From Desulfobacteraceae bacterium (GTDB taxonomy: Bacteria; Desulfobacterota; Desulfobacteria; Desulfobacterales; SKZT01), in the NCBI GenBank assembly GCA_011389745.1, contig JAABTQ010000006.1, positions 45,475 through 109,474 on the forward strand: a stretch of 64,000 nt of DNA, in the 5' to 3' direction. Position 1 is the first letter of the stretch, and each line of letters starts with the position of its first letter. Under the pieces are notes generated by a model that did not search any database, was not told the DNA's origin, and saw only the letters and a list, made by a program, of their open reading frames with translations. Shown here one piece after another: positions 6,890 through 25,583 of this stretch. A program made the translations under genes and the position numbers.

Positions 6890-7138
6890 ATGAACTTTTT
6901 TAAAAAGGAGGTGGGAAATGAAGATATTACTCATCTTTCCTCCATAGATCGCAAAGGAATTAGCGATGGAAAAGCATATAAAGGGATGACCAAAGATGGT
7001 GTGAGAATCGCTCTTGGATATCCTGCTGTCCATCAAACACCTTCTTTGGACAACAATACGTGGACCTATTGGAAAAACCGATTCACGACAACGGTTGTCG
7101 AATTCGGAAATGACGGCAAAGTCATCTCGATACGCTAA
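6890..7138 (+). pseudogene. Probable 5'-truncated outer-membrane lipoprotein (SmpA/OmlA-like C-terminal domain)
   Basis: GMTKDGVRIALGYP...TW.YW motif without signal peptide or lipobox; in-frame TAG at 6848-6850 upstream. Confidence 0.5.
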
Positions 7139-7157
7139 CAAAAAACACCTTAATACC

Positions 7158-8204
7158 ATGATTTTAACAAATGGCGATGAACAGCCAAACGGTTTGGATA
7201 TATGGATTTACAAAGCATCCCGGGGTATCAATAGAGGTAATTCCATTTTAGCAGCAACACAAACCGCCCGGCAAAAAGGAAAATCTCATTTATTAATTCT
7301 GGAAAATGATGAATCCTACACCGCAGATGATTTACAAAAAATCTTCTCTCATGTTCAGAAGTTTCCTGATGCGATTATATCAGGCAAACGCAACTTCATA
7401 AACACAAATGAATCATGGTCACACCATTCATGGCGGCAATTATCCAATTTCTGGTTTCGCCTTCAAACAAAACAGGCTCTCAAAGACTCCACCTGCAGCC
7501 TTAGAGTTTATCCGATTTATATATTCAATCACCTGAAATTGTATCAGAAAGGATTAAGTTTTGAAGTTGAAGTTTTAGTGAAATCTTCCTGGGCAAATAT
7601 TGCGTTAAAGGAGGTGGAACTTGGCCAATACTATCGTTCGCCACACCACAGGGGAAACTTTATTAAAAGACTTTTGCAAGTTTTTTATATCACGATACTG
7701 AATTTGCATTACACCATGAGATCCATTACTCCCATTCCCCACCGCACAATCGTTAGGCCAAAAGAATATGGTGAAAATATATCTCTTCGTCCGCTTCAAT
7801 CCCTGAAAGCTCTCCTGACCGAAAATAAATCTCCAAAACAGTTGGCGGCTGCAGGCGGTCTGGGAGTCTTTTTGGGAACATTACCTCTTATCGGTTTGCA
7901 TACCATGCTTATTTTGTTCACATCCAACTTTTTTCGACTCAACAAGGTAGCCGCAATCAGTGCCAGTCAATTGTGTATGCCGCCCATAGTACCGGCACTG
8001 TGCATTGAGGCCGGTTATTATATCCGCCACGGCACTTTTCTAACCGAAATATCTCTGGAAACTATCGGATATCAGGCATTCGAGCGTCTTTTTGAATGGT
8101 TCATCGGCTCTCTTGTCCTGGCTCCTTTGTTTTCAATTATTATCGGCTTTGCAATTTATCTGACAGCCAAATTGATTAAAAGTAAGAAAAGACAGATTGC
8201 TTGA
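7158..8204 (+). CDS. GT2-like/DUF2062 fusion membrane protein, GT domain shortened and degenerate
   Basis: GT2-like NRGNSILAA..LILEND, LKDSTCSLRVYP and FEVEVLVK, then DUF2062 (SPKQLAAAGGLGVFLGTLP...RLNKVAAI). Confidence 0.7.
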   Translation: MILTNGDEQPNGLDIWIYKASRGINRGNSILAATQTARQKGKSHLLILENDESYTADDLQKIFSHVQKFPDAIISGKRNFINTNESWSHHSWRQLSNFWFRLQTKQALKDSTCSLRVYPIYIFNHLKLYQKGLSFEVEVLVKSSWANIALKEVELGQYYRSPHHRGNFIKRLLQVFYITILNLHYTMRSITPIPHRTIVRPKEYGENISLRPLQSLKALLTENKSPKQLAAAGGLGVFLGTLPLIGLHTMLILFTSNFFRLNKVAAISASQLCMPPIVPALCIEAGYYIRHGTFLTEISLETIGYQAFERLFEWFIGSLVLAPLFSIIIGFAIYLTAKLIKSKKRQIA

Positions 8205-9682
8205 TTAAAACTCCGCCACATAACCATTATCTTGCAACCCCTCCCCGGAAAAGATTGCGCATCGTGCTGGTTCACCCGGCCGGATCCAACTGGATCCCAG
8301 GCAAAAAAGATATCACCGTCATTGCCAACCGAATGGCCCCTTTAGGTCTTCTTTCCATTGCAGCCTATCTTAAACAAGAAGGGCACGCGGTATTTGTCCA
8401 TGATTGCTTAGGCCCCGGAGCAGTTACTGATCATATTGCAAACATAAAAAAAATACTTGAATACAGACCGGATATTGTTGGATTTTCGGCCACAACTTCC
8501 GGCTTTTTGGATGGATACCTCATGGCCGAATCTATTAAAAAGGCCAATAACCAGGTCCGAATCATTTTCGGAGGTGTTCATATTTCAGCTTTGGGCAAAG
8601 TATTGCTTGAACAATTCAAGAATATCGATTTTCTATGCATGGGCGAAGGTGAGATAACCCTTTCGCAACTGGCTTCCGGAAAAGATGTATCAGCCATCGA
8701 CGGCCTGATATGGAAAGAAGGCAATCAAGTGCGAACCAATCCGGTTCGCAGTCAAATTGCTGATCTGGATACACTCCCCTTTCCGGCGTATGAAAACCTG
8801 GAAGGATTCCCACGGGGGTATCATCTTCCTCTTTTCAGCTATATCCGATCTCCCGGATCCACCATGGTGACCAGCCGGGGCTGTCCGTATCAGTGTTCCT
8901 ACTGCGACCGATCGGTTTTCGGTCGCGGGTATCGTTATCATTCGGCCCAATATATTTATGAACACATGCGTTATCTTCGTAACCGATTCGGGATTCGCCA
9001 TATCAATATTTACGATGACCTTTTTACCATGCACCAAAAGCGGGTTGAAAGTCTTTGTAAGCTTCTGACTTCAAAACCGTTGGGAATTCAATTTAACTGC
9101 GCCGTGCGTATCGGGCACGCCGATGATCAATTGCTGAAAAAGTTAAAGGATGCCGGGGCACTCCAGATTTCGGTCGGCATTGAATCAGGCGATCAGAAAC
9201 TTTTAGAATGTCACAAGCCGGGTGTTTATCTTGATGAAGTCAGAGACACCATCAATCGCATTCAAAAAATTGGACTGCGTGCAAAAGGGCTTTTCATGAT
9301 GGGACTTCCGGGTGAAACTGTGGAATCGATTAAAAAAACAAGCGACTTTTTAATGTCACTTGGTTTGGATGATATGAATATGTCCAAATTTACTCCTTTT
9401 CCCGGTGCACCTATATGGAAAACCATACTTGAACATGGAACTCTCGACAATGACTGGTGCAAAATGAACTGTTTAAATTTTGTTTTTGTTCCGAAAGGTA
9501 TTGACTCCAAAGAAACACTTGATCAGTCGTACAACCAACATGTCAAAAGGTTTTATTCTGATGGCCAATGGCGAAAAAAATTTCGGGGACGTTTGTGGGA
9601 ACATCGTGGCAGTATCCGGCATTTTATTCAACATATTCCCACATTCCTTGAGGCACGGCGTACTTTTGAACCTAAAAATTAA
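8201..9682 (+). CDS. Cobalamin-binding radical SAM protein
   Basis: PLGLLSIAAYL, IFGGVH, GEGE, SRGCPYQCSYC (CX3CX2C), GIESG, GLPGET, TPFPG. Confidence 0.92.
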   Translation: MIKTPPHNHYLATPPRKRLRIVLVHPAGSNWIPGKKDITVIANRMAPLGLLSIAAYLKQEGHAVFVHDCLGPGAVTDHIANIKKILEYRPDIVGFSATTSGFLDGYLMAESIKKANNQVRIIFGGVHISALGKVLLEQFKNIDFLCMGEGEITLSQLASGKDVSAIDGLIWKEGNQVRTNPVRSQIADLDTLPFPAYENLEGFPRGYHLPLFSYIRSPGSTMVTSRGCPYQCSYCDRSVFGRGYRYHSAQYIYEHMRYLRNRFGIRHINIYDDLFTMHQKRVESLCKLLTSKPLGIQFNCAVRIGHADDQLLKKLKDAGALQISVGIESGDQKLLECHKPGVYLDEVRDTINRIQKIGLRAKGLFMMGLPGETVESIKKTSDFLMSLGLDDMNMSKFTPFPGAPIWKTILEHGTLDNDWCKMNCLNFVFVPKGIDSKETLDQSYNQHVKRFYSDGQWRKKFRGRLWEHRGSIRHFIQHIPTFLEARRTFEPKN

Positions 9683-9743: not shown

Positions 9744-11084
9744 ATGCTGACCCAAAAGCTTGAAAAAATCCTGTCAGGTCCTGAACATCCAAACGCTGAA
9801 TTTATAAAATCCTCCTACACTTACCATAATATTTACACCATGGCGGCAGATATACAAACGACACTGTCCGGCAATGATGATATTGTCTGCCTGTATACGA
9901 AAAACAAAGCCATCATTGCCGCATCAGTTTTGGCATCATTGGCATCCGACTTTATGGTTATTCTGCCTTATGCACTTTCAATTCAGGCTTTACAGGAAAT
10001 TCAAAATCTTTTTCATGTGGACACGATCATTACCGATCAAGCAAATTCAAATCTGTCCGGAATCAACCCGGTTATTCCCAAAATAAACAAAATTGTTTCA
10101 CTATCGCTGCCGCTGGTCAAATCTCCGGATAGGCCATTTCTTAAATTTTTTACCGGCGGCTCCACAGGCCGGCCTAAGGTATGGACTAAAACCGCACGAA
10201 ACTTGTTCGGAGAAGCTTTTTTTCTCTCACAAAAATTCAGACTCGACAAAACCGATTGTATTCTGGCGACCGTTCCCCCTTATCATATTTACGGGTTTCT
10301 CTTTTCTGTACTCGTTCCGTTCGTATCGTCTTCCAAAGTCACTGCCGATATTTGCTCTTTCCCACAGGAAATAAGAAACAGTCTTAAAAAATATTTTCCG
10401 ACTATTCTGGCAAGCATTCCCATGCACTACAGAATTTTAAAAGGTGGGAAAATCCCTGGAGATTCTCTTCGAATGGCATTTTCTTCGGCTGGAAAATTAG
10501 ATGAAACCGATGCGGATTATTTCTACCAAAAGACCGGCGTAGAGTTGATAGAAATTTACGGTTCAACCGAGACAGGAGGCATTGCGAGCCGGTGCCGTGC
10601 TAGGGGAGAAACAAATTTAGAGGCTTTTGAAATCATAGAATGGAAAGTTGTCGATGAGCGCCTTTATGTTCGTTCACCTTTTATTTCTCCGGATATTGCC
10701 GTAGATTCGGACGGTTTTTACCAAACCGGCGACCGTGTCCTTATGCAAGATGAAAAATATTTTTCACTTTTAGGGCGGGCTGACGGAATTGTAAAAGTCG
10801 GCGGCAAACGAGTGGATCTTGAAAATGTTCGCGACACAATCCTTCAGTATCCTGGTGTTACTGATGCCATTGCCTTTGCCATACCCGACACACGGGGAAG
10901 AGAAAGCAGCATTTGCGCAGTGGTTCAGGGAAATATCGACAAAGAACAGCTGATAGCAAGTATTTCACAACAGGTCGAACAATATGCCATTCCACGTCAT
11001 ATCAAGATTGTGGAAAAAATACCGGTTTCATCCTCGGGAAAGTATGATAGAAAATCCCTGGAAAAAATATGTATCCGGATATGA
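9744..11084 (+). CDS. Acyl-adenylating ligase (ApeH-like acyl-CoA/acyl-ACP synthetase)
   Basis: FTGGSTGRPK, YGSTETGG, TGD, GRADGIVKVGGKRV, SSGKYDR. Confidence 0.88.
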   Translation: MLTQKLEKILSGPEHPNAEFIKSSYTYHNIYTMAADIQTTLSGNDDIVCLYTKNKAIIAASVLASLASDFMVILPYALSIQALQEIQNLFHVDTIITDQANSNLSGINPVIPKINKIVSLSLPLVKSPDRPFLKFFTGGSTGRPKVWTKTARNLFGEAFFLSQKFRLDKTDCILATVPPYHIYGFLFSVLVPFVSSSKVTADICSFPQEIRNSLKKYFPTILASIPMHYRILKGGKIPGDSLRMAFSSAGKLDETDADYFYQKTGVELIEIYGSTETGGIASRCRARGETNLEAFEIIEWKVVDERLYVRSPFISPDIAVDSDGFYQTGDRVLMQDEKYFSLLGRADGIVKVGGKRVDLENVRDTILQYPGVTDAIAFAIPDTRGRESSICAVVQGNIDKEQLIASISQQVEQYAIPRHIKIVEKIPVSSSGKYDRKSLEKICIRI

Positions 11085-11108: not shown

Positions 11109-11972
11109 CTATTTGTCAAAAATCCATTCCGGTGGTTTCAACCGTCCCCCACTGATATCCCGCATCCTTAAACCTGAAATGGTTTCATGAATATTGCCTT
11201 CCCTATCCTCAATCCTGATATCGAAAACAAGTAGTTTTTTATCGGAATGTACCGGCTTTATCAAAGCAACATAAGTATTACTAAAACGAGTCGGCGTGTG
11301 AATGTGTCTTTCACTGAAACCCACCGGAAAGGCCACCATATGATGGTAGCGCTGACCCCATGCACAGGCCGCATGGAAGGCGGCATCCAGGGTGAATGGC
11401 GACCCTAACCGGGAATTGTCCCCTTCAATGGGATCACCTCCATAAACAGATGCCACAGCACCGTTTCGGCTCATAAACAAAGGTTCCCGGATGTTCCGAT
11501 AAGCCGGGCCAAACGGAACAAGTTCCCTGTAAATGACATCAGGCGCAATTTCAAAAAAATTCTTATCCAAAAGTGATCCTGGATCAAATGCCCTTTCTTC
11601 CGATGGTTTCAGGGTAAAAGAAAGATTGATCGTTACATGCTCAATAAAACGGGTAATGGTTGATTTCCCGGATTGAAACCTGGTCACCAGCTTTGCCTGA
11701 ATAAGACCGTTTTCAAGGACTTCAATATCGTTGAACCCTTCAATAGAGTCTTCATGTTTTCTTATAAAAAGAAATTTATCAAAAGTCGCGTCAACAATGT
11801 CTGCGTTTTTTATATTTTCGACATACGGCCGCGCGGAATCCACCAGAATTCTCATGGCCTCAACCGCTGGAAGCACCGCTTTGCCCATGAATTGATGGTC
11901 AAATAAATGAGGAAAGACCGGTATTGTGATGGGAATTCGTTTTTTGCGGGTTATTTGGGAAAATTTTTCCAT
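11109..11972 (-). CDS. Stand-alone polyketide-synthase-type (double hot-dog) dehydratase
   Basis: HLFDHQFMGKAVLP (HxxxGxxxxP), PFGPAY, and the catalytic Asp in LDAAFH. Confidence 0.8.
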   Translation of the reverse strand: MEKFSQITRKKRIPITIPVFPHLFDHQFMGKAVLPAVEAMRILVDSARPYVENIKNADIVDATFDKFLFIRKHEDSIEGFNDIEVLENGLIQAKLVTRFQSGKSTITRFIEHVTINLSFTLKPSEERAFDPGSLLDKNFFEIAPDVIYRELVPFGPAYRNIREPLFMSRNGAVASVYGGDPIEGDNSRLGSPFTLDAAFHAACAWGQRYHHMVAFPVGFSERHIHTPTRFSNTYVALIKPVHSDKKLLVFDIRIEDREGNIHETISGLRMRDISGGRLKPPEWIFDK

Positions 11973-17132: not shown

Positions 17133-17389
17133 TTGTCCATTTTTTTTTGGATATATTCGGAAATGAACCGAACAGTTGTCAGCTTTGGATAATCATCCTC
17201 ATCGATTCTGATCCCGTATTCATCCTGAAGAACCAATGCAACCGTGGCAAGATCCATACTGTCAATACCTACTTCATCCACAAGATCCACATCCGGTTCA
17301 AAAGTTTCAGGGGTGACATCTTCCAGCTTCAATTCATGAATCATCACCTGGGCGACACGAAGAATAATTCTGTCGATTTCCTCGGGCAT
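17129..17389 (-). CDS. Acyl carrier protein
   Basis: Acidic 86-aa protein with GIDSMD phosphopantetheine motif; stop overlaps the radical SAM start (ATGA). Confidence 0.9.
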   Translation of the reverse strand: MPEEIDRIILRVAQVMIHELKLEDVTPETFEPDVDLVDEVGIDSMDLATVALVLQDEYGIRIDEDDYPKLTTVRFISEYIQKKMDK

Positions 17390-19142: not shown

Positions 19143-21305
19143 TCAGGTTATGGCGATCGCTGTAAGAAATTTTCCAAATCCGAGAACCAAAATTCCTTTT
19201 TTATCAAGTGAACCATCAGTTTTTCCGCTGAGGCTCCCGGGGATTTTACCTGTTCTTTTAAAAACCGATGCCAGGGCCACAGCCACGGCGGAAGCCGATG
19301 CAAATTCACCAATCAGCAGGCGGTAATCAATGATGGGGCACCTGCAACCAGTAAATTTTAAAAAATTTTTAAGTTGCTCTTCTCCCCGATTTCTGAAGGC
19401 CATGGGTATTCCGGCAAAAATTGCTCCAAAACAATTGTCAATTTCATTGCCGCCCAGTTTTTCCGCCAGAAATGAAACAATGTCCGGATCATGGTCCGCA
19501 TTTCCAAAAAAAACCGGAAGAATTATGGGCTTGTTCTGTTCCTGCGATTTGACCAGACAAATGGCTCCGCCGCCATCGGAGCGTGTTCTTTCCATCGCTA
19601 CTGAACGATCAAACAAAGGAGAAAAATGAACATGATATTCATCAGCCCCCAACACCAGAAGCGGGTCGGATATGTCATCAGCCATAAGACTTGCGGTAAA
19701 AAGAGCTTGTTCAAAGGAATAATCTCCCCCGGTGGTCGTCACATTGGGTCCAACGGCATTAAAATACATGGCTGTTTGACCTGCAGGCGCATTGTGAACC
19801 GATCCGATAAAATCCGTTGGACTGGGAAACTTTTCATCAGAATCATACAGTTTTTTTAAAAAATCGTATGTTTCTGAAAGCGGGCCCCATCCGGTACCCC
19901 AAAAAACAGATGACGGTTTTTCAAAACACCCTGAATTTTCAAAGGCTGAGGATGCAAGAGCCATGGCCATACGGGGAAGTCTTTTCAAACGACGAACCAG
20001 AGATGGCTGGATTAATCCCGAAATATCGACATGGCCAGGCAATCCTTTACAATTTTTGCCGGAAACAAGCCTATCCAAAGTCTTTTTCATGTCCCCTGCC
20101 CCGGTAATACAGGCACTACCGATAACAGCCAAAGGGGCAAGGCTTTTCGGGGCAACATTCCTATCCTTTCGGCAATCCCCAACGATTATCGATGCATTAT
20201 TGCCCCCAAAACCAAATGAATTGGATAATGCTGCATTTACTTTTACCCGGACAGGATTTTTCAACGGTTCGATATCCATTGCAGGATCAGCATTGCAAAA
20301 GCCGGTATTTGCAGGAATAACCCCATTTGCGACAATCAGGGCACAAATCACGGCTTCAACAGCTCCGGATGCGGCAAGAGAGTGCCCCAAAGCCCCCTTA
20401 ACAGATGATAGTAACGGCATGTCACTTTTAAACACCTCCTTGACCGCCTTTGCTTCGCAAAGATCATTGTCAATGGTGCCGGTGCCGTGTAAATTAATAT
20501 AATCGATGTCTGAAATTGTGATGCCCGCATCATGAATGGCTGCTTTCATGGCTTTGACGGCTCCCCTGCCCTCCGGGTCGGGTGTTGTCGGATGGTATGC
20601 ATCACAGGACAATCCACCTCCCAATAATTCAGCAACGGCGTTTTCAGGTACGTTTTTATCGGCCACAAGATATAGCATGGCCGCGGCTTCTCCCACGGAC
20701 ATTCCTCTGCGGTTTTTGTCAAACGGATGGGCACCTTCAGGATCAATGAGCTGTAAAGATTTAAACCCGTAATAGGTCAGGCGACAGAGCGAATCGGCCC
20801 CACCGGCAAGTACACGCCTGGCCGGTCCGCATCTTAGCATCTCCATGGCAAGTTTGATCGCAGCAGTTCCTGATGAACATGCATTAGAAACAGTAATGAC
20901 CGGTCCTTTGCAACAATATTTTGCTGCAATATACTCCGCTACAGTCCCGGCGCCATGATAAAGAAATTTTTCAGGATCATGAATCCCGTTTTTCAAGTGG
21001 GTTTCGGTGGTCAAAATCCCTCCGGTGGTCACACCGATGATCACGGCATCGATTGTCCCGGGTAACCGTGCCATGGCCTCATCGGCCGCTGCAAGAGCCA
21101 ACTGGTGGGTTCTGGGGATTTGAATGTTTCCGAACAAATCAGGTATTTGACCTGCGGGAAGAAGCTGATCTTCGGAAATGCTGAACAGATTCGGCATCCC
21201 AAGAGCTGTGTCCGAATTTTCAATCAGGGTTTGAAGACGGTCCACTCCCCGACCGGCAGGTGTAATCACCCCCATTCCGGCGATAAAAACCCGGATACCT
21301 GTCAA
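19143..21305 (-). CDS. Ketosynthase fused to a chain-length-factor-like domain
   Basis: N-half NACSSG/NLHGTGT/GHSLAA/NSFGFGG; C-half RRLKRLPRMA, SPTDFIGSVHNAPAG with no catalytic Cys. Confidence 0.85.
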   Translation of the reverse strand: MTGIRVFIAGMGVITPAGRGVDRLQTLIENSDTALGMPNLFSISEDQLLPAGQIPDLFGNIQIPRTHQLALAAADEAMARLPGTIDAVIIGVTTGGILTTETHLKNGIHDPEKFLYHGAGTVAEYIAAKYCCKGPVITVSNACSSGTAAIKLAMEMLRCGPARRVLAGGADSLCRLTYYGFKSLQLIDPEGAHPFDKNRRGMSVGEAAAMLYLVADKNVPENAVAELLGGGLSCDAYHPTTPDPEGRGAVKAMKAAIHDAGITISDIDYINLHGTGTIDNDLCEAKAVKEVFKSDMPLLSSVKGALGHSLAASGAVEAVICALIVANGVIPANTGFCNADPAMDIEPLKNPVRVKVNAALSNSFGFGGNNASIIVGDCRKDRNVAPKSLAPLAVIGSACITGAGDMKKTLDRLVSGKNCKGLPGHVDISGLIQPSLVRRLKRLPRMAMALASSAFENSGCFEKPSSVFWGTGWGPLSETYDFLKKLYDSDEKFPSPTDFIGSVHNAPAGQTAMYFNAVGPNVTTTGGDYSFEQALFTASLMADDISDPLLVLGADEYHVHFSPLFDRSVAMERTRSDGGGAICLVKSQEQNKPIILPVFFGNADHDPDIVSFLAEKLGGNEIDNCFGAIFAGIPMAFRNRGEEQLKNFLKFTGCRCPIIDYRLLIGEFASASAVAVALASVFKRTGKIPGSLSGKTDGSLDKKGILVLGFGKFLTAIAIT

Positions 21306-21568
21306 TTGATCGTCTCAGGAGAATTTTGACGAATATGCTCGGCCAGTGCGTTCAGGCTGGCAAAAACCTTAGCGCCCAATTCTTTGCTGTCGATTTTTAC
21401 CGCATAATCCCTCTCAATCATCATGACCAGTTCCAGGATATCAATTGAATCAATGCCCAGTTTTCCTCCGATCAGCTGTTCATTTACATCGATGTCTTCC
21501 GCATCAATATCGACAAGATTTAACGTTTCAACCACTTTTTGTTTTAATTGGTCGACAAGTGTAGTCAT
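21302..21568 (-). CDS. Acyl carrier protein
   Basis: LGIDSIDILELV motif; likely ATG at 21568. Confidence 0.9.
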   Translation of the reverse strand: MTTLVDQLKQKVVETLNLVDIDAEDIDVNEQLIGGKLGIDSIDILELVMMIERDYAVKIDSKELGAKVFASLNALAEHIRQNSPETIN

Positions 21569-21679: not shown

Positions 21680-22147
21680 ATGTTGATTTTCAATCACTTT
21701 TTCAAAACAAAGGTTTCTAACGCAGTGAATATCGATATCGAAAGGCTTCTTCCCCACCGTGACGCAATGAAACTGGTGAATAAAATTGTCAAGGTTGATG
21801 AGCACATGGCGATAACCGAATCCGTTGTAACCAAAAACTGGCCCCTGATTGAAAAAAATAATGTCAATTGCCTTGTACTGATTGAACTGGTAGCTCAGAC
21901 CTCGGCAGTCTGTATTGGCTGGAAAGAACTCGTGGATAACCAGGAGGATGTGGGTGGAAAGGGATGGCTGGTGGGAATCAAATCGGCATCTTTTTTTACC
22001 GGCGGTATCCCGTTGAATACCCATATTATGACAGAAACTTACATTAATTTCACCATGGACAATTATACGGAAATTCGGGGGGAGTCCAAAGCAGGCAATG
22101 TTGTTCTGGGCAAAATCATTCTTCAGGTGTTGAAAAATATCATTTAA
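21680..22147 (+). CDS. Hot-dog fold dehydratase partner (ApeP-like); start may be GTG 21725
   Basis: IERLLPHRDAMKLV, LIELVAQ, GWLVGI. Confidence 0.78.
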   Translation: MLIFNHFFKTKVSNAVNIDIERLLPHRDAMKLVNKIVKVDEHMAITESVVTKNWPLIEKNNVNCLVLIELVAQTSAVCIGWKELVDNQEDVGGKGWLVGIKSASFFTGGIPLNTHIMTETYINFTMDNYTEIRGESKAGNVVLGKIILQVLKNII

Positions 22148-22172
22148 GTAAATTGGAAATTAAACAAAAAAG

Positions 22173-22898
22173 ATGAATCAAAAAGTTGCGATTGTCACAG
22201 GCGCTAGCCGTGGAATCGGTCGCGCTATCTCATTGGAGCTTGCCCGATCCGGTTATTTTATTGTAATCAATTATCAAAATAATATACACGCCGCCGAAAA
22301 AACCCTTGAAATGGTCAGGGAATATAACAGCGATGGTGAATGCGTTCAATTCGATGTATCCAGCGCGGAACAAACCCGGATTGCCATTGAAAACATCACC
22401 TCCCGATTTGACAACATCGATATACTGGTCAACAATGCAGGAATCACCTCAGATGACCTTTTTCTTATGATGTCTGAAAACAGTTGGGATTCGGTGGTCA
22501 ATACCACCCTGAAAGGATTTTATAATGTGACCCGCCCCGTATTACAGCATATGGTTGTTCAAAAACATGGTGCAATTGTATCCATGGCATCCGTTGCGGG
22601 AATCATGGGCAACAGAGGACAGGCAAATTATGCGGCAGCCAAAGCCGGTTTAATCGGTGCAAGCCGGTCGGTGGCCTATGAGGTTGCCCGATTGGGTGTT
22701 CGTGTTAATGTGGTGGCACCTGGACTGATTGATACCGACATGATGCGGGATTTACCGGTCAAAAATATCAAAACCCTGATTCCCATGGCAAGAATCGGAA
22801 AGCCGGAAGAAGTGGCAAAAGTGGTCAGATTTTTATGTTCCGACGATGCCTCCTATGTCACCGGCCAGGTAATCTCCGTCAATGGAGGCATGTTTTGA
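22173..22898 (+). CDS. fabG: 3-oxoacyl-ACP reductase (cluster copy)
   Basis: TGASRGIG, NNAG, YAAAK, VNVVAPG, VNGGM. Confidence 0.93.
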   Translation: MNQKVAIVTGASRGIGRAISLELARSGYFIVINYQNNIHAAEKTLEMVREYNSDGECVQFDVSSAEQTRIAIENITSRFDNIDILVNNAGITSDDLFLMMSENSWDSVVNTTLKGFYNVTRPVLQHMVVQKHGAIVSMASVAGIMGNRGQANYAAAKAGLIGASRSVAYEVARLGVRVNVVAPGLIDTDMMRDLPVKNIKTLIPMARIGKPEEVAKVVRFLCSDDASYVTGQVISVNGGMF

Positions 22899-22899
22899 T

Positions 22900-23601
22900 A
22901 TGATGGGTTTGTTATTAAAATCATTCAACCTGATTATCAATCCTGCAAAATCTGCCCAAAAGAGCACAGGGCTTAAAAGGTCGATTTCCTGTTTGTTAGC
23001 AGGTGTCCTCTGTGCCATGATCTTTTTTGTTTTTATCGGATGGGCCGACACGTGGGAAACTATCCGCCATAAATCCGGTAACATTGAAACTGTACGGGCT
23101 GATTTTCTGCAGGAAAAGCATCTAAAAATTCTCTCAAAGCCCTTAATTTCTAAAGGCTCACTATATTTCAAAGCTCCCCGTTCACTCAGATGGGAATACA
23201 AATCACCTGTGCCAAGTGTTCTCCTGATGCACGACGGGAAAATCCTTCGTTTTGTCAAATCCGGCGAGGGTTTTTTCCGTGATTCCGGTATGAAACTTCA
23301 GGCCATGCAAGTGGTCATGGATGAAATCACCCTTTGGCTAAGCGGCCGGTTTCAGGACAATCCCAATTTCAACGCCGGCCTGGAGCCCGGCCCCAAAATT
23401 ATTCTGACCCCTAAAGAAAACACATTAACACCTATCATATCCCGCATCGAATTAATGCTTTCGGACAGGCCCGGGGTCATCAACACCGTCACCATATTCG
23501 AAGACGAGGATTCATTGACCAGATTGATATTTAAAAATGCCATACTAAATGAACCACTCAATGATTCCATATTTGAAGAAATTTCCTCAAATGTTCATTA
23601 A
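22900..23601 (+). CDS. LolA-like outer-membrane lipoprotein carrier
   Basis: Hydrophobic N-terminal segment; ADFLQEKHLKILSKPLISKG...LRWEY motif. Start uncertain. Confidence 0.8.
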   Translation: MMGLLLKSFNLIINPAKSAQKSTGLKRSISCLLAGVLCAMIFFVFIGWADTWETIRHKSGNIETVRADFLQEKHLKILSKPLISKGSLYFKAPRSLRWEYKSPVPSVLLMHDGKILRFVKSGEGFFRDSGMKLQAMQVVMDEITLWLSGRFQDNPNFNAGLEPGPKIILTPKENTLTPIISRIELMLSDRPGVINTVTIFEDEDSLTRLIFKNAILNEPLNDSIFEEISSNVH

Positions 23602-23611
23602 TCCTGGAACG

Positions 23612-24301
23612 ATGACTCCCAAATCCTGTAACAGGTTATTGCATCTAATTTATTTTTTTTTGATACCAGTCTTTTCAACTGTTTCATGCAGCCATATACC
23701 CAAAATTTATAAGGCCGAATTCACCGATCCTGCTCAAATCCTTGAAAGATGCCATGCCGTATTTCCTGATGGAGACCGGCGCTTTGTCCATTCCATTGAG
23801 GCGGAATTAGGCGGAGGAAACAATGCGTTCATGCTGGGCATCACCCGGATTTCCCCGCAGAATCGAACCATATGGGCTGTCGTTATGACTTTTGAAGGTA
23901 TGGTGCTCTTTGACGCTGTTCATAATGATTCAATGGTCATCAACCGCGCGATCCCTCCTTTTGATTCGGATTTTTTCGCTCAGGGTCTTATGAAAGATAT
24001 TCGTCTGATATTTTTTGAACCTGAGCAACATCCGGTTGAAATCGGCACACTGCTTTCCGGAGAAAGCATATGCCGTTTTCATACCCATGAAGAAATGATT
24101 ACGGATGTGACCATCGGACAACACAGCCATGTAACGATCAACAGATATCATCGCCAACGATTGCATCGTAGTGTCCGGCTTCATAGGGGAGAAACACAAA
24201 GTGACCCATCCATTTTTCAAAAACTTGAACTGATTGCCCACGGTCCTGTAAAATACAAAATGGAACTTAACCTTTTGGAAGCTGAATTTTTAAACGAATA
24301 G
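23612..24301 (+). CDS. Putative lipoprotein (DUF3261-like)
   Basis: Hydrophobic signal ending in TVSC; FVHSIEA, MTFEGMVLF, DIRLIF. Start uncertain. Confidence 0.6.
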   Translation: MTPKSCNRLLHLIYFFLIPVFSTVSCSHIPKIYKAEFTDPAQILERCHAVFPDGDRRFVHSIEAELGGGNNAFMLGITRISPQNRTIWAVVMTFEGMVLFDAVHNDSMVINRAIPPFDSDFFAQGLMKDIRLIFFEPEQHPVEIGTLLSGESICRFHTHEEMITDVTIGQHSHVTINRYHRQRLHRSVRLHRGETQSDPSIFQKLELIAHGPVKYKMELNLLEAEFLNE

Positions 24302-24314
24302 GTATATTGGATAT

Positions 24315-25583
24315 ATGTCCATAAAATTTAAGTTAATTTATCCCAAATGGCCGAAACTTCAGGGGCAGACCGAATTTCATCTTCCCCCGCATGGTCCAGT
24401 GGTGTTTGCTGCAGCACTTCCGAAAAACGTCCAGGTCGAATTCACAGATGAAAATCTCCAATCCATCAACTTTGATGATCCCGTAGATTTTGTCGGCATT
24501 TCCATGATGCTGACCATTCAGATTAAACGGGGCTGGGAGATTGCAAATATCTATCGAAAAAAAGGAATCCCGGTCATTTTCGGTGGAATTGCCACGATGC
24601 TTCATGCCGAGGAAACCTTGACTCATGCGGATTCTGTCTTTTTAGGGGAGGCCGAGGGGCGCATGGAAGAACTTTTTTCAGACTTTCGAAATGGACGTTT
24701 AAAAAAACTTTACAATTTTATAGATGATCATCCTCCCATTGAGGTGGTGGGTACTGCAAGGCGGGATATATTGAACAAGGATTTGTACAACTACAAAGGA
24801 GTCAGGATGTTTGACCTGGTCCATGCCTCCCGGGGTTGTCGTTTTCACTGCTATCCTTGCGCCGTGGCATATCTCGGAGGCCGTAAGTTCAGGCCACGAC
24901 CTGTTCATAAAACCATCGAGGAAATGGATAGTATCGATAACAACCGTCTTTTTCTGGTGGATAATTCATTGGCCCAGGATACCCAATGGGAAGAAAACCT
25001 CTTCCGGGAAATGATCCCCCTAAAAAAAAAATGGTGCAGTCACCCTATCGAAGATAATCCTAAAATCCTGGATCTGGCAGCACAAGCCGGGGCCTGGTAT
25101 GTTTACCAGGCGATTTTCGATACCTCGGACCTTATCAGGGAACGGATCAAGCGCTACCATGATTACGACATTGCCGTGGAAGGAACCATTTTGCTGGGAC
25201 TGGATGATCATACCGAAGACTTTATCAAACGGTTGATCGACTTTTTAATGGACATCAAACTGGACCTGGCCGAATTTACCGTTCTGACGCCTTTTCCCCA
25301 TACCATAGCCTATGAAGAACTTCATCGTCAGAAACGGATTTTTTCCTATGACTGGAACGACTATTCCGCTGATAAGGTGGTATATTATCCCAAAAACATG
25401 ACACCGGAAAAACTTCAGGAACTTTTGAATTATGCCTGGAAAACATTTTACAGTGAGGAATCACAGGCAATCAAGATGTTCAAATTGTATCAACAAGTCA
25501 TCAGGAAAGAACAAGCAGACGGCACTTTCCGTCCAAGGGAACGTAATTTATCGCGTCAGGCATTTGGAAAAAATCTCAAATAG
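24315..25583 (+). CDS. Cobalamin-binding radical SAM protein, atypical subfamily
   Basis: IFGGI, GEAE, SRGCRFHCYPC, TPFPHT; the usual GxES segment is absent. Confidence 0.85.
   Translation: MSIKFKLIYPKWPKLQGQTEFHLPPHGPVVFAAALPKNVQVEFTDENLQSINFDDPVDFVGISMMLTIQIKRGWEIANIYRKKGIPVIFGGIATMLHAEETLTHADSVFLGEAEGRMEELFSDFRNGRLKKLYNFIDDHPPIEVVGTARRDILNKDLYNYKGVRMFDLVHASRGCRFHCYPCAVAYLGGRKFRPRPVHKTIEEMDSIDNNRLFLVDNSLAQDTQWEENLFREMIPLKKKWCSHPIEDNPKILDLAAQAGAWYVYQAIFDTSDLIRERIKRYHDYDIAVEGTILLGLDDHTEDFIKRLIDFLMDIKLDLAEFTVLTPFPHTIAYEELHRQKRIFSYDWNDYSADKVVYYPKNMTPEKLQELLNYAWKTFYSEESQAIKMFKLYQQVIRKEQADGTFRPRERNLSRQAFGKNLK

What the first reader, a model, noticed from the sequence alone, without database searches (positions are those of the whole stretch)
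6890..25583. Radical-SAM-rich type II PKS/FAS island making an unknown envelope lipid
Seen: 20 contiguous genes in three apparent transcription units (+6890-11084, -21568-11109, +21680-25583). They encode 3 ketosynthases, 2 ACPs, FabG, 3 dehydratase-type proteins, a thioesterase, an acyl-adenylating ligase, a GT2/DUF2062 protein, LolA, lipoproteins and 5 radical SAM enzymes. Established: the KS/CLF, ApeI/ApeP-like dehydratases, ligase, LolA and GT resemble aryl-polyene clusters. TIGR04072-type B12 radical SAMs mark lipid islands shared by anammox (ladderane-candidate) bacteria and Desulfobacterota, whose products are, to my knowledge, unresolved. Inference: an ACP-bound polyene is built, then cyclised, methylated or cross-linked by oxygen-independent radical chemistry, and sent to the outer membrane.
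Basis: partly seen in the sequence, partly recalled or inferred. Interest (0 to 1): 0.85.

Follow-up and report, generated by a model that had tools for sequence, protein, structure and literature searches.

The report
Radical-SAM-rich lipid gene island, sulfate reducer
This is a real, well-conserved gene island for building and modifying an unusual fatty-acid-like envelope lipid in an uncultured sulfate-reducing bacterium; clusters of this type have been known since 2009 but their product is still unknown.

Summary
All 20 ORFs at 6890-25583 exist with the stated families.

The host carries dsrA and no hydrazine-synthase domain. It is probably a member of the Desulfobacterales, not an anammox bacterium.

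The island belongs to the "ladderane-type" / aryl-polyene-like clusters. These have been described in deltaproteobacteria since Rattray 2009, and their product is unresolved.

New points found here:
- **Conserved core.** It is not TIGR04072. It is a kernel of FabZ/ApeI-like DH, ACP, rSAM378, rSAM334, FabF, FabF, thioesterase and PKS-type DH. Every kernel gene except the small dehydratase (14 of 18) was seen in 17-18 of 18 loci chosen by rSAM334.
- **Twin radical SAMs.** rSAM334 is 71-84% identical across the phylum, against 55-67% for housekeeping FabF beyond the family. In one genome the pair is fused.
- **Tandem FabFs.** Both keep Cys-His-His, unlike anammox FabFmut.
- **Split pathway.** The MMPL exporter, two acyltransferases, a further ACP, KS and B12-rSAM lie on contig C2. 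In relatives these genes adjoin the kernel.
- **KS-CLF fusion.** It folds like the PfaC KS-CLF didomain.

The chemistry and the product remain inference. Verdict: a new member of a known, uncharacterised kind.

The parts
6890..7138 (+). Small BamE-like protein (82 aa). No signal peptide or lipobox seen.
   Evidence: Pfam BamE 22.3 bits, below the cut-off of 23.2. 36-52% homologues lie near type-B clusters. Found in 0 of 18 kernel loci.
7159..8204 (+). Weak GT2 part plus DUF2062 membrane protein (ApeJ-like by recall). The listed ORF starts at TTG 7014. The ATG at 7159, just after the upstream stop, is the likelier start.
   Evidence: DUF2062 54.9 bits vs 27.4. AglJ GT2 E 7e-5. Sequence read.
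8201..9682 (+). B12-binding radical SAM 'A' (493 aa), HpnJ/BchE-like. Not a member of any named equivalog.
   Evidence: Pfam B12-binding 64.3 and Radical_SAM 92.8. HpnJ 194 vs 577.6 and TIGR04072 101 vs 360. CPYQCSYC at residue 228.
9744..11084 (+). Acyl/aryl-adenylating ligase (446 aa), the candidate starter-unit loader.
   Evidence: AMP-binding plus AMP-binding_C. No NCBIfam cut-off reached. 39-41% homologues lie next to the kernel in 3 of 18 loci and in G016.
11109..11972 (-). PKS-type double-hotdog dehydratase (287 aa) with HxxxGxxxxP and DxxxH. In some relatives it is fused to a 4'-phosphopantetheinyl transferase.
   Evidence: PS-DH 37.2 bits. Motifs read by eye. PS-DH::ACPS fusions of 508-532 aa in G016 and G030. 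No fusion in G003 or G015. Detected in 18 of 18 kernel loci, 12 of them at >=35% identity.
11951..12430 (-). YbgC/4HBT-type thioesterase (159 aa).
   Evidence: TIGR00051 85 vs 68.7. 18 of 18 kernel loci at 55-68% identity.
12449..13717 (-). FabF-like ketosynthase (422 aa) with intact Cys-His-His.
   Evidence: Pfam KS N and C domains. fabF TIGR03150 366.9, below 493.75. Triad shown. 18 of 18 kernel loci at 62-77%.
13726..14970 (-). Second FabF-like ketosynthase (414 aa) with intact Cys-His-His. 39% identical to the 422-aa one.
   Evidence: 18 of 18 kernel loci at 58-68%.
14991..15995 (-). Radical SAM 'rSAM334', SPASM/twitch-like with a C-terminal CCx7Cx2C. Extremely conserved.
   Evidence: CNLRCKGC at residue 37. 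AF2 pLDDT 91.1. Foldseek top hits anSME, SkfB, ChlB, CteB, SuiB. 71-84% identity across the phylum. Only one full-length 50%-identity cluster among 1.84e9 representatives.
15996..17132 (-). Radical SAM 'rSAM378', a paralogue of rSAM334 (26% identical). It lies in the same frame, separated by a single stop codon.
   Evidence: CNIRCEGC at residue 62. Paralogy. 18 of 18 loci chosen by rSAM334. Fused with the rSAM334 orthologue in one 708-aa frame in G483.
17129..17389 (-). Kernel acyl carrier protein (86 aa, DSM serine).
   Evidence: PP-binding 36 bits. 17 of 18 kernel loci at 67-77%.
17402..17767 (-). ApeI/FabZ-like single-hotdog dehydratase (121 aa). The HFPG histidine is present. The FabZ glutamate is not aligned.
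   Evidence: FabA 43 bits and ApeI-like 38.1 vs 28.5. PDB: 3esi 1.1e-10 and 6qsr 1.5e-8, against amxFabZ 7qv0/8ayc at about 1e-3 (the amxFabZ codes are confirmed in PMC10139942).
17786..19138 (-). TIGR04072 B12-binding radical SAM (450 aa), 'lipid biosynthesis B12-binding/radical SAM protein'.
   Evidence: 390.9 bits vs 360. It is the only over-cut-off copy in the genome. Best PDB hit is TsrM 6wte at 1.1e-30. The equivalent of TsrM Arg69 is kept in 14 of 14 homologues. Glu273 is replaced by Ala here.
19143..21305 (-). Fused KS-CLF (720 aa). The N-terminal KS has Cys-His-His. The C-terminal CLF-like domain lacks it.
   Evidence: Pfam KS N/C plus Ketoacyl-synt_2 at residues 432-557. Motifs. PDB hits 9s5h_B 215.9 bits and 6qsp_A 179.3. 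AF2 pLDDT 75.6, pTM 0.86. Foldseek top hit PfaC KS-CLF 6riw, E 2.2e-33, TMq 0.75. Present in 6 of 18 kernel loci.
21302..21568 (-). Second ACP (88 aa from the ATG at 21568; 108 aa from the GTG at 21628).
   Evidence: PP-binding 39.2 bits; NF006617 65.5 vs 70. Start read. Present in 11 of 18 kernel loci.
21680..22147 (+). ApeP-like hotdog protein (155 aa). It has a FabZ-type 'IELVAQ' glutamate but no HFP histidine. Likely partner of the 121-aa DH.
   Evidence: ApeP-like 21.7 bits, below the cut-off of 27. Motif read by eye. Present in 6 of 18 kernel loci.
22173..22898 (+). 3-oxoacyl-ACP reductase (FabG, close to FlxB).
   Evidence: NF004200 301.1 vs 273. FlxB 309.3, below 340.
22882..23601 (+). 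LolA-like lipid or lipoprotein carrier.
   Evidence: Pfam LolA 54.8. LolA2_flexi 95.8, below 125.
23549..24301 (+). Putative lipoprotein (250 aa), a remote DUF3261 relative.
   Evidence: No direct Pfam hit. 8 of 23 aligned homologues match DUF3261, best E 2.6e-6. Cys47 is invariant in the alignment.
24315..25583 (+). Divergent B12-rSAM-like protein 'C' (422 aa). It accompanied TIGR04072-type genes in both cluster types.
   Evidence: Sub-threshold Pfam B12-binding 29 and Radical_SAM 21.5. CRFHCYPC at residue 175. 73-81% orthologues in type-A loci and 58-60% beside type-B TIGR04072 genes.
25621..28921 (+). dCache/HAMP histidine kinase and sigma-54-type response regulator just downstream. A link to the island is not shown.
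   Evidence: Pfam. Not seen next to the cluster in relatives with these queries. No sigma-54 promoter motif above chance.

Best explanation
The island is one half of a split, 'highly reducing type II PKS/FAS-like' lipid pathway. The host is an uncultured sulfate-reducing bacterium, probably of the Desulfobacterales. The island has four layers.

**(1) Conserved kernel, 17767 to 11109 on the minus strand.** It holds an ApeI-like DH, a dedicated ACP, two paralogous SPASM/twitch-type radical SAM enzymes, two catalytically intact FabF-type ketosynthases, a thioesterase and a PKS-type dehydratase.

**(2) Aryl-polyene-like chain-building set.** It holds a second ACP, a fused KS-CLF, an ApeP-like DH partner, FabG and an adenylating ligase.

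**(3) Three B12-type radical SAM tailoring enzymes.** One of them is a true TIGR04072 member.

**(4) Envelope-targeting parts.** These are a LolA-like carrier, a DUF3261-like lipoprotein and a GT2/DUF2062 membrane protein.

The missing exporter and anchoring enzymes lie on contig C2. They are an MMPL protein, a PlsC-type and a lipid-A-type acyltransferase, a GT2, plus a further ACP, KS and B12-rSAM.

**Shown:** gene content, catalytic motifs, conserved linkage of the kernel, linkage of the C2-type genes to the kernel in other genomes, and the exceptional conservation of the twin rSAMs.

**Inferred mechanism:**
- The ligase loads a starter onto an ACP.
- KS-CLF, FabG and the His-only/Glu-only DH pair extend it to an unsaturated (polyene-type) acyl-ACP, since no enoyl reductase is encoded in the island.
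- The two FabFs with the kernel ACP and the PKS-type DH build or extend a second chain segment.
- The twin rSAMs carry out an oxygen-independent C-H functionalisation (desaturation or C-C closure) on the ACP-bound chain.
- The TsrM/BzaD-like TIGR04072 enzyme and its B12 companions C-methylate or rearrange it.
- The thioesterase or the acyltransferases release the chain onto a (glyco)lipid anchor.
- LolA, DUF3261 and MMPL carry it to the outer membrane.

The product is not a ladderane.
For: **Families and motifs.**

**TIGR04072.** 390.9 vs 360.

**Host.** dsrA 613 bits, over its cut-off. No HZS_alpha domain. Homologues at 83-85% identity are named Desulfosarcina widdelii, Desulfococcaceae and Desulfobacterales.

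**Kernel linkage.** In 18 loci chosen by an rSAM334 hit, from 18 genomes of the phylum sample: rSAM378 18/18, FabF414 18/18, FabF422 18/18, TE 18/18, PS-DH 18/18, ACP86 17/18, small DH 14/18. The same order appears in 5 of 12 genomes fetched by TIGR04072.

**Twin rSAMs.**
- They share one 708-aa open frame in G483.
- rSAM334 identity to G003, G016, G437, G195 and G193 is 84, 82, 80, 79 and 71%. Housekeeping FabF in the same genomes is 85, 67, 59, 60 and 55%.
- There is only one full-length 50%-identity cluster of orthologues among 1.84e9 representatives. The next full-length relative is 36% identical.
- A distant relative, P0135, is fused to what look by eye like a docking region and a GWSMGG-type hydrolase (thioesterase-like) region.

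**Split pathway.**
- The MMPL and PlsC-acyltransferase genes that adjoin the kernel in G016 and G030 have their best own-genome matches on C2, at 46-48% and 55%.
- C2:45.7-53.7 kb encodes GT2, MMPL, Lip_A_acyltrans, ACP, KS, PlsC-AT and a B12-rSAM.
- C2-type genes adjoin the kernel elsewhere: KS in 4/18 loci (71-78%), PlsC-AT in 5/18, MMPL in 7/18.

**APE likeness.**

**KS-CLF fold.** Top Foldseek hit is PfaC KS-CLF 6riw, E 2.2e-33, TMq 0.75.

**TIGR04072 relatives.** The next-best named families are BzaD (158 bits) and the Trp 2-C-methyltransferase (120 bits). The best solved relative is TsrM at 1.1e-30.

**Assembly check.** The island is seen in contigs of 4 other studies.
Against: - No product, intermediate or expression data exist. 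No RNA run was listed.
- The kernel is not universal where its neighbours occur. In G005, of the same family, TIGR04072, the small DH, FabF and FabF lie together without the ACP and the twin rSAMs.
- KS-CLF is absent between ACP and TIGR04072 in G003, G030 and the Smithella MAG. It is present in only 6 of 18 kernel loci. The 'two chain-building lines' may therefore be separable systems.
- The rSAM334 fold search gives only generic SPASM/twitch enzymes acting on peptides or nucleotides. No lipid enzyme is on top.
- ApeP-like, FlxB and LolA2_flexi all score below their curated cut-offs.
- The flat identity profile of rSAM334 could reflect horizontal transfer rather than constraint.
- The 18 loci were picked by rSAM334, so its own 18/18 is by construction.
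- The C2 locus is linked only by comparative context, not by any test in this genome.
Confidence: 0.65

Rival explanations
1. Anaerobic polyunsaturated fatty acid or hydrocarbon pathway, which is Rattray's hypothesis. The twin SPASM/twitch rSAMs would act as oxygen-independent desaturases on acyl-ACP. The product would be a bulk membrane PUFA, or a precursor of polyunsaturated hydrocarbons, rather than an outer-membrane pigment or lipid.
For: - Rattray 2009 found polyunsaturated hydrocarbons, but no ladderanes, in Desulfotalea psychrophila. That organism carries a syntenic cluster, and the authors proposed a novel anaerobic PUFA route (PMC2649909, abstract passage).
- The fused KS-CLF model is most like the PfaC KS-CLF of a PUFA synthase.
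- The structural neighbours of rSAM334 include anSME on top and SpeY, titled a twitch radical SAM dehydrogenase, lower down.
- PDH-like amine oxidases adjoin the kernel in 3 of 18 loci.
Against: - The LolA-like, DUF3261-like, MMPL and acyltransferase genes point to export and anchoring, not to bulk phospholipid.
- No PDH-like gene was found in this genome with the G030 query.
- KS-CLF is absent from most kernel loci; it is present in 6 of 18.
- From recall, not tested here: the hydrocarbons of such bacteria are usually ascribed to Ole and Pfa genes.
Confidence: 0.15
2. An ordinary aryl-polyene or flexirubin-type pigment cluster that merely sits beside unrelated radical SAM and FAS genes. On this view the 'island' is two or three independent systems.
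For: - APE-type parts are present.
- The modules are separable. KS-CLF, TIGR04072 and the left arm are each missing from many kernel loci: present in 6/18, 8/18 and at most 3/18.
- Type-B loci carry TIGR04072, B12-rSAM C, B12-rSAM A and GT/DUF2062 without the kernel.
Against: - The minus-strand genes from the ACP at 21568 to the DH at 11109 are packed with gaps of about 20 bp or overlaps, in one orientation.
- The same mixed order recurs across families.
- 24 of 30 rSAM334-positive genomes also hold a TIGR04072-like gene, against 66 of 371 others.
- No SAM methyltransferase of the ApeB type and no ApeR-type KS lie in the island.
Confidence: 0.1
3. Mid-chain methyl-branched fatty acids (for example of the 10-methyl-C16 type) made by B12-radical-SAM methylation of acyl-ACP. 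The rest of the island would serve chain supply.
For: - There are three B12-type rSAMs here and a fourth on C2.
- TIGR04072 is nearest to the C-methylases BzaD and TsrM.
- From recall only: both sulfate reducers and anammox bacteria contain mid-chain methyl fatty acids.
Against: - This does not explain the twin non-B12 rSAMs, the KS-CLF, the DH pair, or the LolA, DUF3261 and MMPL genes.
- TsrM and BzaD methylate sp2 carbons of aromatic rings, not alkyl chains. For TsrM this is from passages of PMC8992657. For BzaD it is recalled.
- No lipid data exist.
Confidence: 0.06
4. A genuine ladderane (cyclobutane) lipid pathway outside the anammox bacteria.
For: - The island shares the TIGR04072 family, a KS/CLF pair, an ACP and a FabZ-like DH with anammox 'Cluster I' KustE3603-3608 (preprint 10.64898/2026.05.19.726425, section 3).
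- The best PDB hit of the KS domain is 9s5h_B, a two-KS entry that may be the amxFabF heterodimer. This is unverified.
Against: - Ladderanes are reported only from anammox bacteria, and none were found in D. psychrophila.
- The host has dsrA and no hydrazine synthase domain.
- The 121-aa DH is ApeI-type, not amxFabZ-type.
- The tandem FabFs are closer to canonical FabFs (251-271 bits) than to 9s5h_B (170 and 209 bits).
Confidence: 0.02

Closest known systems
FASII/radical-SAM clusters of Kuenenia stuttgartiensis and their syntenic counterparts in Desulfotalea psychrophila, Geobacter and Pelobacter (Rattray et al. 2009). antiSMASH labels this type 'ladderane'.
   Same: - The combination is the same: extra FabF paralogues, ACPs, radical SAM and B12-radical SAM genes, a CoA-ligase, a glycosyltransferase and a membrane protein.
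- Polysaccharide deacetylase and phytoene-dehydrogenase-like genes are seen in relatives.
- The product is unknown in all of them.
   Different: - I could not align the window to the named Kuenenia or Desulfotalea genes, because no tool gave me those sequences.
- This genome lacks a PDH-like gene and shows only a weak partial match to the deacetylase, with the queries used.
- Here the pathway is split over two contigs.
Anammox 'Cluster I' (KustE3603-3608): amxACP, amxFabZ, amxFabF2, amxFabFmut, PDH, B12-radical SAM.
   Same: - TIGR04072-family B12-rSAM.
- A KS plus an inactive CLF-like partner.
- A dedicated ACP and a small hotdog DH, lying side by side (21568-17402).
   Different: - KS and CLF are fused in one 720-aa protein.
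- The DH is ApeI-type: amxFabZ hits at E about 1e-3, against 1e-10 for 3esi.
- The island has no PDH.
- A second pair of FabFs has both members active.
- The twin SPASM/twitch rSAMs are not listed among the Cluster I genes in the text I read.
Aryl polyene (APE) and flexirubin clusters (ApeA-R; gene names recalled).
   Same: KS/CLF, ApeI/ApeP-type DH pair, FabG-type KR, adenylating ligase, two ACPs, 4HBT thioesterase, LolA-like protein, DUF3261-type lipoprotein, GT/DUF2062. MMPL and acyltransferases are present on C2.
   Different: - Five radical SAM genes and an extra FabF-FabF-ACP-DH kernel.
- No ApeB-type methyltransferase in this genome's island.
- ApeP-like, FlxB and LolA2_flexi all score below their curated cut-offs.
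- The exporter and acyltransferases are unlinked.
PfaC KS-CLF didomain of polyunsaturated fatty acid synthases (PDB 6riw).
   Same: It is the only solved fused KS-CLF, and it is the top structural match of the 720-aa protein (E 2.2e-33, TMq 0.75).
   Different: - 18% sequence identity.
- The window protein is free-standing and has no other Pfa domains.
- The model is of moderate confidence (pLDDT 75.6).
TsrM and BzaD, cobalamin-dependent radical-SAM-fold C-methylases.
   Same: - They are the best solved relative (TsrM, 1.1e-30) and the next-best named families (BzaD 158 bits, Trp 2-C-methyltransferase 120 bits) of the TIGR04072 protein.
- The Arg under the cobalamin (TsrM Arg69) is kept in 14 of 14 homologues.
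   Different: - TsrM Glu273 blocks SAM binding to the cluster (PMC8992657). Here it is Ala, and it is Ala, Val, Ser or Thr in 13 of 14 homologues. Ordinary radical chemistry is therefore not excluded.
- The substrate is unknown.

Membership tests
TIGR04072 (lipid biosynthesis B12-binding/radical SAM protein) | Whole-protein HMM score at or above the curated cut-off of 360 bits | tested here: met
   390.9 bits over model positions 1-443 and 390.5 bits in the six-frame genome search. The margin is narrow. Type-B relatives score 539-680 bits in the own-order sample and 543-672 bits in the phylum sample.
TIGR04072 (lipid biosynthesis B12-binding/radical SAM protein) | B12-binding domain plus a CxxxCxxC radical SAM core | tested here: met
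   Pfam B12-binding 45.8 and Radical_SAM 65.6. CLFRCVYC at residue 195.
Anammox ladderane 'Cluster I' | KS paired with a catalytically dead FabF (FabFmut/CLF) | tested here: met
   The KS-CLF fusion has an N-domain with C-H-H and a C-domain without it. The pair is fused here, not two genes.
Anammox ladderane 'Cluster I' | amxFabZ-type dehydratase | tested here: not met
   amxFabZ entries 7qv0, 8ayc, 8ayb and 8ayd hit at E 0.001-0.009. ApeI-type 3esi and 6qsr hit at 1e-10 and 1.5e-8. The PDB codes are identified in PMC10139942.
Anammox ladderane 'Cluster I' | Phytoene-dehydrogenase-like gene in the cluster | tested here: not met
   No such family occurs among the 20 ORFs. tblastn of the G030 PDH-like protein found nothing in the whole genome at E 1e-5.
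Anammox ladderane 'Cluster I' | amxACP with its long 3-10 helix | not tested
   The amxFabZ-amxACP complex 7qv0 is not among the 60 best of 101 PDB matches of ACP86. ACP108 was not searched. No structure was compared.
Anammox ladderane 'Cluster I' | Host makes ladderane lipids (anammox physiology) | tested here: not met
   dsrA is present. No HZS_alpha domain was found in a genome that is 99.9% complete. The lipids themselves cannot be tested here.
Aryl polyene (APE) cluster | KS:CLF pair of the ApeO/ApeC type | tested here: inconclusive
   6qsp_A (I recall it as the ApeO-type KS) is the second-best PDB hit at 179.3 bits, behind 9s5h_B at 215.9. Pfam Ketoacyl-synt_2 matches the CLF half.
Aryl polyene (APE) cluster | ApeI and ApeP dehydratases | tested here: inconclusive
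   ApeI-like 38.1 vs 28.5 is met. ApeP-like 21.7 vs 27 is not reached.
Aryl polyene (APE) cluster | LolA-like, DUF3261 lipoprotein, MMPL exporter and acyltransferase in the cluster | tested here: inconclusive
   LolA is met. DUF3261 is reached only through homologues, 8 of 23. MMPL and the acyltransferases are present but lie on another contig.
Aryl polyene (APE) cluster | Aryl starter and an aryl-polyene product | not testable with these tools
   The ligase reaches no NCBIfam cut-off. 4-coumarate-CoA ligase scores 93 vs 334.7.
Flexirubin pathway equivalogs (FlxB, LolA2_flexi) | Score over the curated NCBIfam cut-off | tested here: not met
   FlxB 309.3 vs 340. LolA2_flexi 95.8 vs 125.
Housekeeping FabF (TIGR03150) | Score over the cut-off of 493.75 | tested here: not met
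   366.9 for the 422-aa protein and 344.8 for the 414-aa protein. The genome's own FabF lies on C1 and is 35-37% identical to them.

The most novel reading that the evidence does not exclude
The ACP-rSAM378-rSAM334 trio is a self-standing catalytic unit. It would perform a so far undescribed oxygen-independent reaction on an ACP-bound fatty or polyene chain, such as radical desaturation or ring-forming C-C closure.

It would give sulfate reducers and syntrophs an unrecognised class of envelope lipid. TIGR04072 and its B12 companions would be add-on tailoring steps shared with anammox bacteria.

If so, cultured Desulfobacterota that carry the kernel would be the first workable system for the radical SAM chemistry that has blocked ladderane research.
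Probability: 0.3. Interest if true: 0.8.

Novelty: new member of a known kind. Interest (0 to 1): 0.5.

Why it matters
**The open question.**
- Clusters that antiSMASH labels 'ladderane' turn up in many non-anammox anaerobes, and nobody knows what they make (PMC9902471; PMC11968836).
- The anammox originals cannot be studied genetically, and heterologous expression of their radical SAM enzyme has failed (PMC10139942; PMC4790861 abstract).

**What this adds.**
- This window adds one more carrier, which is not news in itself.
- The comparison made here narrows the problem to a sharply conserved eight-gene kernel. Its twin radical SAM enzymes occur in 30 of 401 sampled genomes of the phylum.
- TIGR04072 is a separable accessory.
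- A named carrier exists: Desulfosarcina widdelii, which I recall to be a cultured species.

These points make knock-out and lipidomics experiments possible to design.

Tried and rejected
- **Sigma-54 control by the downstream kinase and regulator.** TGGCAC-N5-TTGC with up to 2 mismatches gave 55 matches against 56.4 expected, and none in the intergenic regions. The lead was dropped.
- **RNA elements.** Rfam gave 0 hits at gathering score in the whole window, so no cobalamin riboswitch was found.
- **Promoter and terminator scan.** Nothing usable for operon borders.
- **Expression.** No RNA holder was listed among 21 runs, so expression could not be examined.
- **Do rSAM378 and rSAM334 bind?** The complex-prediction job gave no verdict, score 0.00, and the controls were not run.
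- **Identity of PDB 9s5h/9s5i.** I suspect it is the amxFabF2/amxFabFmut heterodimer. The preprint's main text gives no PDB codes. Its Supplementary Table 2 may, but supplements are closed. The Foldseek library did not list the entry among the rows shown. My residue count gave Cys170, His303 and His340. This fits the preprint's Cys165 and His298 with an offset of 5, but not its His333. The identity stays unverified.
- **Direct comparison with named Kuenenia or Desulfotalea genes.** Not possible.
- **Left arm in run X13.** Three of 30 bins had no depth. I draw no conclusion from this.
- **Extra C behind 16030.** It was seen in all four runs. It would only change the last residues of rSAM378, giving 373 instead of 378 aa.
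- **Literature.** 'TIGR04072' gave 0 papers. The search 'ladderane, antiSMASH, Syntrophales...' gave nothing useful. 'aryl polyene' with 'radical SAM' and 'anaerob' listed 6 papers, none with a characterised product for such a cluster judging by title and abstract.

Full report

Yes. Pfam and NCBIfam give these genes.

On the + strand, left arm:
- a small BamE-like protein (6890-7138; 22.3 bits, just under the cut-off);
- a DUF2062 protein with a weak GT2 part;
- a B12-binding radical SAM (8201-9682);
- an AMP-ligase (9744-11084).

On the - strand, read from 21628 down:
- an ACP;
- a 720-aa KS;
- a B12-radical SAM (17786-19138);
- a 121-aa FabA/ApeI-like hotdog protein;
- a second ACP;
- two radical SAM proteins of 378 and 334 aa;
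- two FabF-like KS of 414 and 422 aa;
- a YbgC-type thioesterase;
- a 287-aa PS-DH protein.

On the + strand, right arm:
- a weak ApeP-like protein;
- FabG;
- LolA;
- a 250-aa protein without any family;
- a divergent B12-rSAM-like protein (24315-25583).

All five radical SAM proteins carry CxxxCxxC. It is the only over-cut-off copy in the genome.

Small corrections:
- The 720-aa KS is a KS-CLF fusion. Its C-terminal half has lost Cys-His-His.
- The first ORF shows no signal peptide or lipobox.
- Likely true starts are 7159 for the DUF2062 gene and 21568 for the first ACP.

**2. Borders and host.**

- Upstream lie Sir2-, aminotransferase- and Tpt1-type genes.
- Downstream lie a dCache histidine kinase, a sigma-54-type response regulator and a PA14 protein.
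- I found no sigma-54 promoter signal and no Rfam element.
- The window is part of a genome of 3.6 Mb in 80 contigs, 99.9% complete.
- The genome has dsrA over its cut-off, with a dsrB-like neighbour. It has no hydrazine-synthase alpha domain.
- Homologues of rSAM334 at 83-85% identity are named Desulfosarcina widdelii, Desulfococcaceae and Desulfobacterales. Relatives of the same order show 79-84%.
- The host is therefore probably a sulfate-reducing member of the Desulfobacterales. This is an inference from names on one protein.
- The DNA occurs in sediment and soil metagenomes of 8 studies. One of them may be the source.
- Contigs of four of these studies cover the island (30, 30, 30 and 27 of 30 bins). 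Single contigs bridge 13164-16992, 14539-17175, 15994-18875 and 17642-26000. The arrangement is therefore not an assembly artefact.

**3. What is conserved.**

I fetched neighbourhoods in two ways.

*First way, by TIGR04072.*
- In a sample of the host's own order, TIGR04072 was over its cut-off in 15 of 41 genomes.
- I took loci from 11 of these genomes plus a Smithella MAG.
- tblastn with the window's proteins showed two cluster types.
- Type A has the window's order: ACP, [KS-CLF], TIGR04072, small DH, ACP, rSAM378, rSAM334, FabF, FabF, TE, PS-DH. A divergent ApeP, FabG, LolA, 250-aa, B12-rSAM-C arm sits beside it.
- Type A is present in 5 of 12 genomes: Smithella, G003, G015, G016 and G030.
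- KS-CLF is missing from that position in three of those five.
- Type B (G039, G026, G009, G007) has a TIGR04072 protein scoring 539-680 bits that is only 35-37% identical to the window's.
- In type B this gene is flanked by homologues of B12-rSAM-C (58-60%), mostly with B12-rSAM-A and GT/DUF2062. There are no twin rSAMs.
- G005, of the host's family, has TIGR04072, the small DH, FabF and FabF, but no ACP and no twin rSAMs between them.

*Second way, by rSAM334.*
- In 401 genomes sampled from the phylum, 30 have it at E<=1e-80, at 71-80% identity. That is 24 of 340 high-quality genomes.
- In 61 genomes of the Smithella MAG's order, 22 have it.
- In 18 loci from 18 of the 30 genomes, the counts for the other genes were as follows (rSAM334 itself is 18/18 by construction):

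| Gene | Loci with it (of 18) |
|---|---|
| rSAM378 | 18 |
| FabF414 | 18 |
| FabF422 | 18 |
| thioesterase | 18 |
| PS-DH | 18 (12 at >=35% identity) |
| ACP86 | 17 |
| small DH | 14 |
| ACP108 | 11 |
| TIGR04072 | 8 |
| FabG | 8 |
| KS-CLF | 6 |
| B12-rSAM-C | 5 |
| LolA | 4 |
| ligase | 3 |
| B12-rSAM-A | 3 |
| GT/DUF2062 | 1 |

- The stable unit is therefore the kernel from the small DH to the PS-DH.
- TIGR04072 is an accessory that often travels with it. 90 of 401 genomes hold a TIGR04072-like gene at E<=1e-100, and 79 are over the cut-off.
- 24 of the 30 rSAM334 carriers are among those 90. G171, G328, G357, G388, G393 and G483 are not.

**4. The twin radical SAM enzymes.**

- rSAM334 and rSAM378 are paralogues, 26% identical.
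- Both end in a CCx(6-7)CxxC motif. In the alignments these cysteines are invariant or nearly so.
- In the window they share a reading frame and are separated by one stop codon.
- In G483 the two orthologues form a single 708-aa open frame. This natural fusion argues that they work together.
- rSAM334 is unusually conserved. Identities to five genomes, beside housekeeping FabF in the same genomes:

| Genome | rSAM334 | housekeeping FabF |
|---|---|---|
| G003 | 84% | 85% |
| G016 | 82% | 67% |
| G437 | 80% | 59% |
| G195 | 79% | 60% |
| G193 | 71% | 55% |

- Among 1.84 billion cluster representatives, 610 proteins match at E<=1e-3 and 36 at E<=1e-30.
- All orthologues collapse into one full-length 50%-identity cluster (P0093). 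The next full-length relative is 36% identical.
- Either the enzyme is under very strong constraint, or the module has moved horizontally. I cannot separate the two.
- A distant relative (P0135, 30% identical) is fused to what look by eye like a docking region and a GWSMGG-type hydrolase (thioesterase-like) region. That would fit a carrier-protein-linked substrate, but I ran no family search on it.
- The AlphaFold model is confident (pLDDT 91.1). Its nearest solved folds are anSME, SkfB, ChlB, CteB, SuiB, BlsE and viperins at TM about 0.5.
- That places it in the SPASM/twitch class and says nothing about the substrate.
- A complex prediction gave no verdict (see Tried and rejected).

**5. The ketosynthases and dehydratases.**

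- FabF414, FabF422, the N-domain of the KS-CLF and the KS on contig C2 all keep Cys-His-His. The C-domain of the KS-CLF keeps none of the three.
- Neither tandem FabF reaches the fabF equivalog cut-off.
- In the PDB they are closer to canonical FabFs (251-271 bits) than to 9s5h_B (170 and 209 bits).
- The KS-CLF behaves differently. Its best PDB hit is 9s5h_B (215.9 bits). That entry holds two different KS chains, and I suspect but could not verify that it is the anammox FabF2/FabFmut heterodimer.
- Its next hit is 6qsp_A (179.3 bits), which I recall as the aryl-polyene KS.
- The model of the whole fusion (pLDDT 75.6, pTM 0.86) is most like the fused KS-CLF of the PUFA synthase subunit PfaC (6riw, E 2.2e-33, TMq 0.75).
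- The 121-aa DH has the HFPG histidine but not the FabZ glutamate (alignment).
- The 155-aa ApeP-like protein has an 'IELVAQ' glutamate but no HFP histidine. The FabZ motifs are recalled. This fits a two-subunit dehydratase.
- The 287-aa PS-DH has HxxxGxxxxP and DxxxH. In G016 and G030 it is fused to a phosphopantetheinyl transferase, but not in G003 or G015.
- No enoyl reductase is encoded in the island.

**6. The island is half of a split pathway.**

- In G016 and G030 the kernel is flanked by an MMPL::methyltransferase fusion, a PlsC-type acyltransferase, a polysaccharide deacetylase, a PDH-like amine oxidase and a GT25-like gene.
- In the host genome the best matches to the MMPL (46-48%) and the acyltransferase (55%) lie on contig C2.
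- C2:45.7-53.7 kb encodes GT2, MMPL, a lipid-A-type acyltransferase, an ACP, a KS, the PlsC-type acyltransferase and a further B12-radical SAM.
- These C2-type genes sit next to the kernel in other genomes: KS in 4 of 18 loci at 71-78%, PlsC-AT in 5 of 18, MMPL in 7 of 18.
- With these queries the host showed no PDH-like gene and only a weak partial match to the deacetylase.
- The 250-aa protein of the window is a remote DUF3261 relative. 8 of 23 aligned homologues match that family, but the window's own copy does not.

**7. TIGR04072 itself.**

- Its next-best named families are BzaD (158 bits) and the tryptophan 2-C-methyltransferase (120 bits).
- Its best solved relative is TsrM (1.1e-30).
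- TsrM Arg69 sits under the cobalamin, and Glu273 blocks SAM from the cluster (PMC8992657, passages).
- In the alignment the Arg is kept in the window's protein and in 14 of 14 homologues. Glu273 is Ala here, and is Ala, Val, Ser or Thr in 13 of 14; only L034 has Glu.
- This makes a cobalamin-dependent C-methylation plausible and leaves radical chemistry open. It is a lead, not a result.

**8. Comparison with what is known.**

- Rattray et al. 2009 described the Kuenenia FASII/radical-SAM clusters and their 'striking' synteny with Desulfotalea psychrophila, Geobacter and Pelobacter.
- That synteny includes SAM enzymes, a ligase, a glycosyltransferase, a membrane protein and phytoene-dehydrogenase-like genes.
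- They found no ladderanes in D. psychrophila (PMC2649909; passages, section 9).
- Later surveys report 'ladderane' BGCs in Desulfobacterota and other phyla, with function unknown (PMC9902471; PMC11968836).
- A 2026 review and a 2026 preprint say the ring-forming enzymes are unknown.
[quoted passage not shown] That matches my finding that the window's ACP, DH and FabFs are not of the anammox-specific types.
- The window is therefore a further member of a kind in print since 2009.
- I could not see supplements. They may hold the PDB codes and the gene tables needed for a gene-by-gene comparison.

**9. Verdict.**

- Novelty: a new member of a known kind.
- Interest 0.5. This is not a surprise for a specialist. 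It bears on a long-standing open question, and the kernel and the named carrier, which I recall to be cultured, make that question testable.

Noticed in passing
G000 contig C2:45700-53700 (locus L040:5693-13664): A second lipid locus: GT2, MMPL, lipid-A-type acyltransferase, ACP, KS with Cys-His-His, PlsC-type acyltransferase and a 505-aa B12-radical SAM. Homologues of these genes adjoin the kernel in other genomes.
   Followed up: partly
L042 (G483:C29) 7837-9960: The orthologues of rSAM378 and rSAM334 lie in one 708-aa open frame with no stop between them. This genome has a second, unfused copy on contig C10 (L043).
   Followed up: partly
L036:11091-12689 (G016) and L039:8345-9871 (G030): The PKS-type dehydratase of the kernel is fused to a 4'-phosphopantetheinyl transferase domain in these relatives. 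It is not fused in the window, G003 or G015.
   Followed up: partly
L036:6200-9274 and L039:15877-18960: An MMPL exporter fused to a C-terminal SAM-methyltransferase domain (1024-1027 aa). The host's own MMPL on C2 is 813 aa and lacks the methyltransferase part.
   Followed up: no
window 16030: All four other metagenome runs laid on the island carry one extra C behind 16030. In the window the rSAM378 tail is 11 residues after that point. With the extra base it would be 6 (373 instead of 378 aa). This is either a strain difference or an assembly slip.
   Followed up: yes
L023/L024 (G005:C1:3352469-3372000): A genome of the host's family (12.5 Mb, 15% contamination) has TIGR04072, the small DH, FabF and FabF adjacent, but no ACP and no twin rSAMs. 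ApeP-FabG-LolA lie about 16 kb away.
   Followed up: no
window 25432-28921: A dCache/HAMP histidine kinase and a sigma-54-dependent response regulator directly follow the island. No sigma-54 promoter motif above chance was found anywhere in the window.
   Followed up: partly
window 1150-2049 and 2190-2978: A XerC/D-type tyrosine recombinase and a DUF3108 protein lie about 5 kb upstream of the island. No repeats or other signs of a mobile element were looked for.
   Followed up: no
L030/L031 (G007:C35): Two type-B TIGR04072 genes lie about 15 kb apart on one contig. Both are 35% identical to the window's protein.
   Followed up: no
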